Below are positions 6,549 to 8,708 of a DNA stretch of 10,234 nt, one piece after another; the stretch's first letter is position 1, and every line of letters starts with the position of its first letter. The position numbers and the translations under genes are program-made. This stretch comes from a virus (Duplodnaviria; Heunggongvirae; Uroviricota; Caudoviricetes). The notes beneath the pieces are model-generated. The model did no database searches. It was given only the letters and a program-made list of their open reading frames with translations, and had not been told where the DNA came from. Location of the stretch: IMG/VR virus record IMGVR_UViG_2617271049_000013, positions 1 through 10,234 of that record; one strand, 5' to 3'.

Positions 6549-7598
6549 TTAGTGTGTTTTTCCTTTTTTGAAACGATGCCTGAATAAATCTACTGGCCTT
6601 TCAACTGTGTAATATAAAAAAAATGAAAATACAATAGTGAAAAAGTATGTAATTGCTGTAGTCATTATTGAGCCATTGGGCACTGGTATACCTAATTTGG
6701 GGATGAAATACTGAATTGTAAGTAGGTGCGATACATAAACAGGATATGACAACATACCAATAAAATTATCGATGCTTGAGTTTTTTGTAAGGTGAAAGAT
6801 TTTCCCAATTAAAAGGGCGAAAGAAATTATTAAGATTATCTTTTTGACTTGATAGTGAAGAGGTATGAACGGGAAGGAAATAATAAATAATAGTATGAAA
6901 GCAATTCCAACTTCAGATACAAATTCATTGTTTCCTGATTCCTGATATGAATTATAATATTTATATGCCAGACTACCTATAAGAAAGATAGATAATTCGC
7001 TTGGGAAAAAACGATAAGTCCAAGGGTCAAATGAGAAGTCTTTCCCAATGAGGATGATTCTCACTAATTCCGAAGCAACGATTAGTAAAATGATAAATCT
7101 CGTACTTTTTTTTAAAATAAATGGTGCGAGCGTGTAAAATGTTAACTCAATTCCTAATGACCATCCTTGTGGTAACAATAATAACTTAAATAATGGTGGT
7201 GTACTATCACCATAAAATGAGACAAACGTTAATTCCCCGTGTTTAACGCCCAAAAACATTGCTATGTCCTGTAGGAATATTGTTGCATTTGTTAAAATTA
7301 AAAAAAAGGTAGCAGAAATAGGAAGTTTTGACAAATTTTCAGCGTAAGAATTGATACCATGAACCAATGTTAGAGACATTAATGCACAAATAATGTAAAG
7401 CGGATATAAACGAAGATATCTGCTTATCCAAAATTTTCCTTTTGTTTCATATGTAGAAATAATCATGGACATATAAAATCCAGATATGATATAAAAAATC
7501 TGAACAGCTGTTTCACCACCAACTAATTTCAATAGTTGATTGGAATTACAATGGGCGCCAACCACGGCTAAAGAAAGTAGTAGTCTGATAATTCCCAT
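6549..7598 (-). CDS. Acyltransferase family 3 integral membrane protein (Oac/OafA-like)
   Basis: 349-aa polytopic membrane ORF. Motifs characteristic of acyltransferase_3: GIIRLLLSLAVVGAH near the N-terminus, FYIISGFYMS, RYLRLYPLYI, and PQGWSLGIELTFY (WSL..E..FY). Strongly AT-rich. An in-frame TAG lies 4 codons upstream of the ATG and the RBS is weak. Confidence 0.8.
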   Translation of the reverse strand: MGIIRLLLSLAVVGAHCNSNQLLKLVGGETAVQIFYIISGFYMSMIISTYETKGKFWISRYLRLYPLYIICALMSLTLVHGINSYAENLSKLPISATFFLILTNATIFLQDIAMFLGVKHGELTFVSFYGDSTPPLFKLLLLPQGWSLGIELTFYTLAPFILKKSTRFIILLIVASELVRIILIGKDFSFDPWTYRFFPSELSIFLIGSLAYKYYNSYQESGNNEFVSEVGIAFILLFIISFPFIPLHYQVKKIILIISFALLIGKIFHLTKNSSIDNFIGMLSYPVYVSHLLTIQYFIPKLGIPVPNGSIMTTAITYFFTIVFSFFLYYTVERPVDLFRHRFKKGKTH

Positions 7599-7696
7599 AA
7601 CTAATCGCTAAGTAAATGATTATTCCGAGTTGGAATTATAACACTTATGAACGCGGTAAGATAGATGTCCAGGGTGGATAACCTCAGATTTAATGA

Positions 7697-7825
7697 ATTC
7701 TTTCGCTAGAGCATTGGGGCTATTCGGGCAGAACATTGCTTCAAGAAAGCGCTAATAAAGTGACGATTATCTATGATGTTGGCGTGTCAACTTTGTATAA
7801 GAGGTTGCCAGTAGGGGAGGAATAA
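7697..7825 (+). pseudogene. 3' remnant of a Pin/Gin/Hin-family serine DNA invertase (HTH domain only)
   Basis: Translation ends ...NKVTIIYDVGVSTLYKRLPVGEE*, matching the C-terminal HTH of Pin/Gin (…QKVAIIYDVGVSTLYKRFPAGDK). An in-frame TGA at 7694-7696 bounds it and no catalytic N-terminal domain is present. Confidence 0.6.
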
Positions 7826-7931
7826 GGTTAAAGACACTTTTTGTACAAAAGAGAATAAAACAACAGCAACTTGTTGCAATTTTATCAATACAAGTAGTAT
7901 TGTCGTAAGAAATTGATTAAAGATTAATATT

Positions 7932-8371
7932 ATGCATTTGTTTGATAATAATGGAATTGAACTGAAAGCTGAGTGTTCGATAGGTGAAGAGGATGGTGTT
8001 TATGGTCTATTCCTTGAGTCTTGGGGGGGGCGGGTGACAGAAACAAAGACTACAATATCGTTCTTGATTATATCATTAAACGGTTGGTGGATTCTGGTGT
8101 ATGCCAAGGAGATAGTATATCTGGCGTCATCATCAGTCAGAAAACACATGCATTCTTTGGATGAAAAAAATCCATCCTGGTGAATATTTTTAATTTGATT
8201 GGTAATAGCCCTCTCGATATACGCTTGAAGATGTGTGGTTATCAGGCTTATTTCAGTCGTACAGGTAGAAAGGAAATTCCTTCCGGCAACAGAACTAAAC
8301 GTATATTGATAAATGTCCCCGGTATTTATAGTGACAGTTTTTGGGCATCTATAATACATAGTTTTCTCTGA
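7932..8371 (+). pseudogene. Disrupted ORF with homopolymer tracts, in the mcrA-equivalent position
   Basis: ORF 7932-8183 (frame 0) and ORF 8180-8371 (frame 2) are contiguous and separated only by a frame change at an A7 tract (8164-8170). A G8 tract lies at 8023-8030. One extra A would fuse them into a ~146-codon ORF. The available space is too short for an intact 277-aa McrA. Confidence 0.4.
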
Positions 8372-8448
8372 TCTTAATTTCTGCAAATGTTAATTGCTAT
8401 TTTATGCTAAAAATGGTTATCAAAACTCAAAAACACATGTTTATAATC

Positions 8449-8485
8449 AATGAGTTATAGAAATGCTAAGAGCTAATGAGTTATA
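8449..8485 (+). repeat. Two direct copies of AATGAGTTATA, 26 bp apart, just inside the prophage from attR
   Basis: Exact 11-mers at 8449-8459 and 8475-8485, about 60-95 bp from the icdC boundary. Confidence 0.5.
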
Positions 8486-8543
8486 TGCAAATTAGTAAAA
8501 TTATGTTGCTATGTCAAATAGTTACGATTTAGTCATCTAACTA

Positions 8544-8708
8544 ATGTTACGCCATATGGGTTGGACTGAAGCCGCAGACCTGATTGTTAAAGGTATGGAA
8601 GGCGCAATCAACGCCAAGACTGTAACCTATGACTTCGAACGTCTGATGGAAGGCGCTAAATTGCTGAAATGTAGCGAGTTTGGCGACGCGATCATCAAAA
8701 ATATGTAA
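8544..8708 (+). pseudogene. icdC: Displaced 3' end of isocitrate dehydrogenase gene (icdC), the attR scar
   Basis: In-frame translation [54 protein letters not shown] is the C-terminus of Icd. It is 165 bp long with no upstream icd coding sequence. Confidence 0.9.

What the first reader, a model, noticed from the sequence alone, without database searches (positions are those of the whole stretch)
7932..8371. ORF in the mcrA slot broken at a homopolymer tract: pseudogene, slipped-strand switch, or sequencing error
A G8 tract (8023-8030) and an A7 tract (8164-8170) lie inside this coding region. A single extra A in the A7 tract would fuse ORF 7932-8183 to ORF 8180-8371 into one ~146-codon frame. 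Alternatively the frame-2 reading after the G8 tract (DRNKDYNIVLDYIIKRLVDSGV...) looks more protein-like and would imply a shift at the G tract plus a TGA at 8162. By synteny with e14 this is where mcrA (modified-cytosine restriction) sits, but the available space is too short for intact McrA and I saw no HNH motif. The draft-quality assembly (N gap) makes homopolymer miscalls plausible.
Basis: partly seen in the sequence, partly recalled or inferred. Interest (0 to 1): 0.5.

Follow-up and report, generated by a model that had tools for sequence, protein, structure and literature searches.

The report
Decayed mcrA restriction-gene remnant
This stretch is the dead front half of the well-known E. 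coli restriction gene mcrA: it has four frameshifts, its nuclease half is deleted, and its run of Gs varies in length between isolates without ever restoring the gene, so it is an ordinary pseudogene.

Summary
G8 lies at 8023-8030 and A7 at 8164-8170, the two short ORFs exist, and one extra A would fuse them.

The region 7932-8361 is a relic of mcrA (EcoKMcrA) at the right end of an e14-type prophage in E. coli D6-113.11. Once the frame is corrected, it matches McrA residues 1-143, the 5mC-reading NEco domain (130/143 identical; PDB 6R64 E=1.8e-85).

Compared with intact mcrA it carries five lesions:
- G8, where the in-frame length is G6.
- A non-homopolymer +1 (GCG to GAGA, 8109-8112).
- A7, where the in-frame length is A6.
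- T5, where the intact gene has T4 (8187-8191).
- A 456-bp deletion (junction 8361|8362) that removes the linker, the whole HNH nuclease domain, the stop codon and 46 bp beyond it.

The lesions are not assembly errors. 18 other assemblies or sequencing runs carry the same deletion, GAGA, A7 and T5.

The G tract is truly polymorphic: G6 in 10 assemblies, G7 in 7, and G8 in 2 (including this window). A sister allele that keeps its full length is also frameshifted (G7 or G8, plus A3 where the intact gene has A4).

No combination of G and A tract lengths rebuilds McrA, and no intact version of this lineage was found. So slippage happens here, but there is no switch. Low interest; the gene and its location are already known.

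The parts
7757..7826 (+). Last ~69 bp of pinE (invertase) including its stop. The rest of pinE has been replaced by the acyltransferase cassette to the left.
   Evidence: BLAST homology to the intact locus L001 starts at window 7757, which corresponds to L001:2958; the pinE CDS is L001:2472-3026. See also alignment A1.
7827..7931 (+). mcrA upstream non-coding region, conserved with the intact locus.
   Evidence: Alignment A1 columns 48-153 are nearly identical to the intact E. coli locus. The promoter-like hits are no more frequent than in shuffled sequence.
7932..8361 (+). mcrA remnant. It corresponds to codons 1-143 of McrA, the NEco 5mC/5hmC-reading domain, split over three reading frames.
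   Evidence: tblastn of McrA against the window recovers pieces in two of the three frames; the short third stretch, KIHPGEYF, reads in the 7933 frame. The frame-corrected translation is 130/143 identical to McrA. PDB 6R64/6GHC match at E=1.8e-85. The domain limits 1-143 come from PMC6182155 and PMC7145662.
8023..8030 (+). G8 tract at codons 31-33 (W31 G32 A33). It is +2 relative to the in-frame G6 state and varies among related isolates (G6, G7, G8).
   Evidence: In this lineage TCT TGG GGG GCG reads S W G A; the CCG to GCG (P33A) substitution extended the K-12 G5 run to G6.
8109..8112 (+). Non-homopolymer +1 frameshift: GAGA where the sister allele has GCG and K-12-type mcrA has TCG.
   Evidence: Alignments A1 and A2. 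Identical in all 19 remnant-class assemblies.
8164..8170 (+). A7 tract. It is +1 relative to the sister allele's in-frame A6, and -2 relative to the K-12 sequence AAAGAAAAA.
   Evidence: A7 is invariant in the remnant class.
8187..8191 (+). T5 tract, +1 relative to T4 in both the intact and the sister alleles.
8361..8362 (+). Junction of the 456-bp deletion. The deletion removes McrA codons ~143-277 (linker and HNH nuclease domain), the stop codon and 46 bp downstream.
   Evidence: Alignments A1 and A2. BLAST alignments break at 8361/8362. The same junction is present in all 19 remnant-class assemblies.
8362..8543 (+). Retained non-coding right end of the e14-type element, between the deletion and the icd' duplicate. 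The TGA that closes ORF 8180-8371 lies here, in formerly non-coding DNA.
   Evidence: Alignment A1 and the sequence itself.
8544..8708 (+). Duplicated 3' end of icd (icdC-like), which marks the prophage attachment site.
   Evidence: ORF translation. The corresponding feature is annotated as a partial isocitrate dehydrogenase in L001. Pfam Iso_dh is recorded for the called gene.

Best explanation
Window 7932-8361 is a non-functional relic (pseudogene) of mcrA. mcrA encodes the type IV modification-dependent restriction endonuclease EcoKMcrA. The relic sits in its usual place at the right end of an e14-family prophage integrated in icd, in E. coli D6-113.11.

Only the coding DNA for the N-terminal methylcytosine-reading domain (NEco, residues 1-143) is left. 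A 456-bp deletion removed the linker, the whole HNH nuclease and dimerisation domain, and the stop codon.

The remaining part is split over three frames by four length changes relative to the lineage's in-frame state: G6 to G8 (+2), GCG to GAGA (+1), A6 to A7 (+1) and T4 to T5 (+1).

The G tract is a real slippage hot spot and drifts among G6, G7 and G8 in related isolates. Every observed or conceivable tract state still gives only short, scrambled peptides of 34-147 aa without a nuclease. Tract length therefore changes which junk ORF a gene caller reports, not a phenotype.

The predicted phenotype is McrA-negative, meaning no McrA-mediated restriction of CpG-methylated or hydroxymethylated DNA.

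What is shown: the homology, the lesions, their reproducibility across assemblies, the tract polymorphism, and the absence of an ORF-restoring state. What is inferred: the order of events, the neutrality of the drift, and the phenotype.
For: Identity and location:
- About 94% nucleotide identity to annotated mcrA in 340 complete E. coli genomes. The query maps as two pieces spanning about 1216 bp against 761 bp here.
- The flanking order pinE, mcrA, icd', iraM matches the intact locus.

Lesions:
- The base-level alignment shows the four indels and the 456-bp gap.
- McrA residues are recovered from three frames.
- The repaired translation is 130/143 identical to McrA and hits the NEco crystal construct 6R64 at E=1.8e-85.
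- HNH (PF01844, residues 207-256) is found in intact McrA and in none of the window's ORFs.
- Domain limits and the catalytic H229 come from PMC6182155 and PMC7145662.

Reproducibility and polymorphism:
- The source record is identical to the window.
- An independent Logan run has the same 83-aa ORF.
- 17 further assemblies have the same deletion, GAGA, A7 and T5, with G7 (7 assemblies) or G6 (10 assemblies).
- G length tracks haplotype. The G6 class carries 13-15 linked SNPs downstream of 8410, and G7 in the sister class is linked to a G/T SNP.

No ON state:
- The full-length sister allele is also dead: G7 or G8, plus A3 where the intact gene has A4.
- Enumerating G4-11 x A4-10 never restores the McrA frame.
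- Repaired intact 276/277-aa proteins of this lineage are absent from a collection of about 15 billion proteins.
Against: No expression or restriction data exist for this strain.

Third-codon positions still carry the majority of substitutions (6/6/15; 12 synonymous against 12 non-synonymous codons). Much of the divergence from K-12 mcrA may therefore predate inactivation, and the decay may be fairly recent.

In the G8 state the +2 and the +1 at 8109-8112 cancel, so the ATG frame regains McrA residues 59-77. This could be misread as selection for an ORF.

Raw reads were not available, so heterogeneity of the tract within one culture could not be assessed.
Confidence: 0.93

Rival explanations
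1. Phase-variable (contingency) switch: slipped-strand changes in the G8 and/or A7 tract turn a functional McrA-derived product on and off.
For: The G tract is polymorphic among near-identical relatives (G6, G7 and G8). In the sister allele it also varies between G7 and G8. The tract lies inside the ORF at the W31 codon of the methyl-binding pocket.
Against: No G x A length combination restores the McrA frame. Two further frameshifts are not at these tracts, and one of them (GAGA) is not in a homopolymer at all. The HNH nuclease domain is physically deleted. All 28 sampled alleles are OFF. Intact proteins of the lineage are absent from the exact look-up.
Confidence: 0.03
2. Sequencing or assembly artefact: homopolymer miscalls in a draft assembly break a gene that is really intact.
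For: The record is a scaffold-level draft with an N gap at 4246-4255. Over about 6 kb the window differs from its closest relatives (L005, L006) only at the N-gap stretch and by one G in the tract.
Against: G8 with the same 83-aa ORF is reproduced in an independent run, SRR31488172, and in 6 samples of the sister allele. The GAGA insertion and the 456-bp deletion are not homopolymer events and are present in all 19 remnant-class assemblies. Even if G8 were miscalled for G7 or G6, the gene would remain dead.
Confidence: 0.03
3. The real gene is the antisense ORF 8000-8386 (128 aa here; 142 aa is called in the G7 assemblies), and the mcrA remnant is merely its template.
For: It is the longest ORF in the region. 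The collection's gene caller picked the antisense ORF in four Logan contigs.
Against: It has no Pfam match and its exact sequence is not in the protein collection. Its length changes with the G tract. The sequence conservation is explained entirely by the sense-strand mcrA homology.
Confidence: 0.01
4. A truncated peptide from the remnant (for example the 83-aa product, which keeps McrA residues 1-31 and 59-77) has residual or new function, such as DNA binding or interference with another McrA.
For: The upstream region and the ATG are conserved. NEco alone binds methylated DNA as a monomer.
Against: The six-stranded beta-sheet domain needs residues 1-143. Here 27 or more residues in the middle are scrambled and the product stops at codon 83, or at 34 or 76 in G7 or G6 relatives. 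The N119 region is out of frame. Product length is not conserved among relatives.
Confidence: 0.02

Closest known systems
EcoKMcrA (mcrA / rglA) of the E. coli K-12 e14 prophage: type IV restriction endonuclease, 277 aa, NEco domain plus HNH domain
   Same: It occupies the same position, the last gene of an e14-family prophage between pinE and the icd' duplicate upstream of iraM. It is about 94% identical in nucleotide sequence. The repaired translation is 130/143 identical over the NEco domain, and S30, W31 and N119 are conserved in it.
   Different: It has no HNH domain, because a 456-bp deletion begins at the NEco boundary. It has four frameshifts and no ORF longer than 83 aa in the sense direction. 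It belongs to a divergent allele lineage (P33A and others) that was not seen in 5426 complete RefSeq E. coli genomes.
Full-length but frameshifted sister allele found in other E. coli assemblies (for example GCA_014941705.1, GCA_020301205.1, ENA ERZ27282053)
   Same: It has the same divergent lineage substitutions, the same G tract with G7 or G8, and the same acyltransferase cassette replacing pinE.
   Different: It keeps the HNH region and the normal stop. It has in-frame A6, T4 and GCG. It is inactivated by the G tract and by A3 where the intact gene has A4 (-1), so it lies two slippage steps from an intact 276-aa ORF.
Phase-variable restriction-modification genes with intragenic simple repeats (type III mod and type I hsd genes of Haemophilus, Neisseria and Helicobacter; from general knowledge)
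   Same: It has a homopolymeric G tract inside the coding region of a restriction gene, and the tract length differs between close relatives.
   Different: Those loci have a repeat length that yields a complete functional protein. Here no such length exists and the catalytic domain is gone. The variation therefore looks like neutral drift in a dead gene.

Membership tests
EcoKMcrA family (NEco-HNH type IV restriction endonuclease) | N-terminal NEco modified-cytosine reader domain (residues 1-143) | tested here: met
   Met only at the level of DNA and conceptual translation. The frame-corrected sequence is 130/143 identical to McrA, and PDB 6R64 matches at E=1.8e-85 over residues 1-142. As encoded, the domain is split over three frames.
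EcoKMcrA family (NEco-HNH type IV restriction endonuclease) | C-terminal HNH (beta-beta-alpha-Me) nuclease domain with catalytic His and Zn-binding CxxC motifs | tested here: not met
   Pfam PF01844 is found at residues 207-256 of intact McrA and in none of the window's ORFs. tblastn finds no significant match to residues 146-277 anywhere in the window. A 456-bp deletion is visible in the alignments.
EcoKMcrA family (NEco-HNH type IV restriction endonuclease) | Uninterrupted ORF of about 277 codons | tested here: not met
   The longest sense ORFs are 83 and 63 aa. There are four frameshifts.
EcoKMcrA family (NEco-HNH type IV restriction endonuclease) | Location at the right end of an e14-type prophage next to the icd' duplicate | tested here: met
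   The order pinE 3' end, mcrA', icd', iraM, ymgL, ycgX matches the annotated E. coli locus.
EcoKMcrA family (NEco-HNH type IV restriction endonuclease) | Restriction of 5mC/5hmC-containing DNA in vivo | not testable with these tools
   This needs a plasmid or phage restriction assay.
Phase-variable contingency locus (slipped-strand mispairing) | Simple-sequence tract in the ORF or promoter whose length varies among close relatives | tested here: met
   G6, G7 and G8 occur in otherwise nearly identical remnant alleles, and G7 and G8 occur in the sister allele. A7 is invariant within the remnant class.
Phase-variable contingency locus (slipped-strand mispairing) | At least one accessible tract length yields the complete functional product (an ON state) | tested here: not met
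   Enumerating G4-11 x A4-10 gives at most 147 aa, with scrambled segments and no HNH. No intact protein of the lineage is in the collection.
Phase-variable contingency locus (slipped-strand mispairing) | Mixed tract lengths within a single culture or read set | not testable with these tools
Sequencing or assembly artefact | The lesions are not reproduced in independent assemblies | tested here: not met
   The same G8, GAGA and A7 occur in Logan run SRR31488172. The deletion, GAGA, A7 and T5 occur in all 19 remnant-class assemblies.

The most novel reading that the evidence does not exclude
The divergent mcrA lineage to which this relic belongs acquired a G6 tract through a P33A substitution. 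In as yet unsampled isolates with an otherwise intact gene, the tract might act as a true ON/OFF slippage switch for McrA. That would be phase-variable type IV restriction in E. coli, and the window and its sister alleles would be switches locked OFF that then decayed.
Probability: 0.03. Interest if true: 0.5.

Novelty: already known. Interest (0 to 1): 0.1.

Why it matters
It matters little beyond annotation.

The 83-aa ORF is deposited as 'Protein of unknown function' (CDU35753.1). It should be labelled an mcrA pseudogene, and the strain should be predicted McrA-negative.

The case is a clean small example of how a single substitution can lengthen a homopolymer (G5 to G6). The tract then drifts among G6, G7 and G8 in a dead gene, and each length makes gene callers report a different spurious ORF (34, 76 or 83 aa, or an antisense 128/142 aa).

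It is also a caution. Tract-length polymorphism among isolates does not by itself show phase variation.

Tried and rejected
- A 21-mer spanning the deletion junction was scanned in genome contigs. The only hit was a chance match in a Clostridiales MAG contig (L002) with no similarity to the window. That collection holds one genome per species, so the E. coli representative simply lacks the allele.
- A lineage-specific 24-mer ending in the G tract was scanned in metagenome contigs and viral contigs, with 0 hits in each.
- Rfam on the whole window gave no family at gathering score.
- The promoter and terminator scan of 7600-8560 gave 3 promoter-like sites against 4.2 expected, so it is uninformative.
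- I tried to read the PGAP annotation of CP057465.1, a complete genome carrying the G7 remnant. The record is not in the held collection.
- The homology search with the repaired full-length sister protein returned the K-12-type cluster (91% identity, 938 members) as the nearest. All were absent.
- I considered whether the G8 (+2) and GAGA (+1) compensation indicates selection for an ORF. I rejected this because G8 is the rarest state (2 of 19 assemblies) and the frame breaks again at A7.
- I considered microhomology at the deletion junction. At most 1-2 bp is shared, so there is no informative repeat.

Full report
OBSERVATION. G8 lies at 8023-8030 and A7 at 8164-8170. ORF 7932-8183 is 83 aa and ORF 8180-8371 is 63 aa. 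The alternative frame after the G tract reads GAGDRNKDYNIVLDYIIKRLVDSGV... and stops at the TGA at 8162. Adding one A to the A tract gives one 146-codon ORF. G8 is the only G or C run of 7 or more in the window. The N gap is at 4246-4255, far from this region.

WHAT IT IS. A megablast of 7800-8560 against 5426 complete E. coli genomes hit 340 genomes, all at 90-95% identity. The match always lies over annotated pinE, mcrA and the partial icd copy. In 329 genomes it is split into two pieces spanning about 1216 bp for a 761-bp query. An intact locus was fetched as L001 from NZ_CP015912. It has pinE, mcrA (834 bp, 277 aa), icd', iraM, ymgK, ymgL and ycgX in the same order as the window.

The base-level alignment (A1; codon walk) shows about 94% identity and five length differences:
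- +2 at the G tract.
- +1 at 8109-8112.
- -2 at the A tract.
- +1 at the T tract 8187-8191.
- A 456-bp gap after 8361. It removes McrA codons ~143-277, the stop codon and 46 bp of downstream DNA.

McrA residues are recovered from three different frames. The frame-corrected translation is 130/143 identical to McrA. It matches the crystallised N-terminal domain construct 6R64 at E=1.8e-85.

According to the structural papers, residues 1-143 form the NEco modified-cytosine reader, 144-146 are a linker, and 147-276 form the HNH nuclease and dimerisation domain with catalytic H229 (PMC6182155, PMC7145662). The deletion therefore starts at the domain boundary and removes everything catalytic. Pfam finds HNH at 207-256 of intact McrA and nothing in any ORF of the region, in either direction.

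SOURCE AND REPRODUCIBILITY. The 83-aa ORF is deposited as CDU35753.1, 'Protein of unknown function', from E. coli D6-113.11 (GCA_000731355.1, HG977190.1). That record is 100% identical to the window. The chromosomal flank from icd' to ycgX is 98.5% identical to E. coli.

An independent Logan assembly of run SRR31488172 carries the same 83-aa ORF. It has one SNP (at 7808) and no gaps over 921 bp.

Using the neighbouring acyltransferase and tract-variant ORFs as handles, I collected further assemblies. Together with SRR31488172 that makes 18 other assemblies of the same remnant, and all have the same GAGA, A7, T5 and deletion junction. None of the lesions is an assembly artefact, and two of them (GAGA and the deletion) are not homopolymer events at all.

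TRACT-LENGTH VARIATION. In the remnant class the G tract is:
- G8 in 2 assemblies: the window and SRR31488172.
- G7 in 7 assemblies: GCA_045069175.1, GCA_016115025.1, CP057465.1 and four Logan runs.
- G6 in 10 assemblies shown, out of 19 contigs read.

G6 is the in-frame length. This lineage reads TCT TGG GGG GCG (S W G A) where K-12 reads TCG TGG GGG CCG (S W G P). A C to G substitution (P33A) therefore turned G5 into G6, and slippage then added one or two more Gs.

G length tracks haplotype. The G6 class has 13-15 linked SNPs, nearly all downstream of 8410.

A sister allele was found in 9 samples. It keeps the full-length gene including HNH. It has an in-frame 3-bp loss at the A site (A6), T4 and GCG. 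It is nevertheless dead because of G8 (6 samples) or G7 (3 samples, linked to a G/T SNP), plus A3 where the intact gene has A4 in CCCGATGGTAAAAGC.

The window's A7 is thus one A too many relative to its closest in-frame relative.

IS THERE A SWITCH? I enumerated G4-11 x A4-10:
- G7 gives 34 aa.
- G6 or G9 gives 76-77 aa.
- G5, G8 or G11 gives 82-88 aa, or 144-147 aa when the A tract also compensates.

The longest products contain 106-107 McrA-identical residues, have scrambled internal stretches, and never contain a nuclease. Exact look-ups of the repaired intact proteins of this lineage (G6 or G9 with A4, both sister haplotypes) and of the G6/A3 products found none in a collection of about 15 billion proteins. 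The junk ORFs of the G6 remnant and of the G7 sister allele were found.

The tract does slip, but there is no ON state. The variation is best read as neutral drift in a dead gene.

HOW IT PROBABLY AROSE (inferred). A divergent but functional mcrA allele existed first. Third-position substitutions still predominate (6/6/15 by codon position; 12 synonymous against 12 non-synonymous codons). In both allele classes the same e14-type element had pinE replaced by an acyltransferase cassette. The gene was then inactivated. The remnant class accumulated GAGA, A7, T5 and the 456-bp deletion before its sub-lineages diverged, because all of them share these lesions. The G tract has changed length repeatedly since then, in both classes.

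COMPARISON AND VERDICT. The locus is homologous to mcrA and syntenic with it, but it fails the defining features of a functional McrA: it has no HNH domain and no intact ORF. It shares with phase-variable restriction genes only the polymorphic intragenic homopolymer and lacks the essential ON state. It is an ordinary pseudogene of a well-known gene in its known location, so novelty is 'already known' and interest is low. The practical outcome is an annotation correction and a predicted McrA-negative phenotype.

LIMITS. No raw reads and no expression or restriction data were available. Some Logan runs may be the same isolates as NCBI assemblies, so the counts refer to assemblies and runs and are not necessarily independent strains.

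Noticed in passing
window 6549-7598 (- strand), with flanks 6300-7756: A low-GC (about 0.31) Acyl_transf_3 gene of 349 aa sits where pinE and part of the invertible tail-fibre segment lie in K-12 e14. Only the last ~69 bp of pinE remain. The cassette has no match in 5426 complete RefSeq E. coli genomes, apart from an IS110-family fragment at about 6360-6500. It looks like a prophage-borne surface-polysaccharide (O-antigen or LPS) acyltransferase acting as cargo. Relatives encode versions of 349, 356, 335 and 307 aa.
   Followed up: partly
window 6616-6623, 7106-7113, 7300-7307: Three 8-base A or T runs lie inside the acyltransferase ORF. The run at 6616-6623, near the 3' end of the gene, is A7 in one relative (L029, SRR15526878), and that relative's gene is called at 335 aa rather than 349. 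All other sampled copies have 8. This could be real slippage or a single error.
   Followed up: partly
window 1-930 (+): A 309-aa ORF with very low GC (0.31) lies next to intE, in the slot where K-12 e14 carries lit. It has no Pfam or PADLOC match. Exact or near-identical copies occur in E. coli, Enterobacter, Klebsiella and Cronobacter. It may be a mobile accessory or defence-type gene of unknown function.
   Followed up: partly
window 3813-5383, N gap 4246-4255: The 10-N gap interrupts a tail or baseplate gene. In a relative without the gap (L006) a single 519-aa product combines DNA_circ_N and tail Collar domains. This suggests an internal prophage deletion that fused a baseplate gene to the tail-fibre gene. 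The element between intE and icd' is only about 7 kb, and I saw no lambdoid regulatory genes among the ORFs I scanned, so it is a heavily eroded prophage.
   Followed up: no
window 5383-5985 (+) and 5957-6271 (-): Two convergent, overlapping tail-fibre-assembly genes (Caudo_TAP) remain, typical of a Pin-invertible segment, but the invertase gene is gone. The segment is presumably frozen in one orientation.
   Followed up: no
window 2500-3135: A GC-rich stretch (0.53) just inside xisE has overlapping ORFs in several frames. Part of it (2499-2788) matches DNA next to a frameshifted hypothetical gene in the intact-locus strain at 91%. Its nature was not determined, and Rfam finds nothing.
   Followed up: no
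L016 (CP057465.1, GCA_013834965.1): This complete genome carries the G7 remnant, but different genes lie beyond the acyltransferase (a 176-aa ORF, DUF4222, Phage_CP76) in place of the tail-fibre genes. The record is absent from the held RefSeq E. coli set. The element therefore exists in several deletion or rearrangement variants.
   Followed up: no
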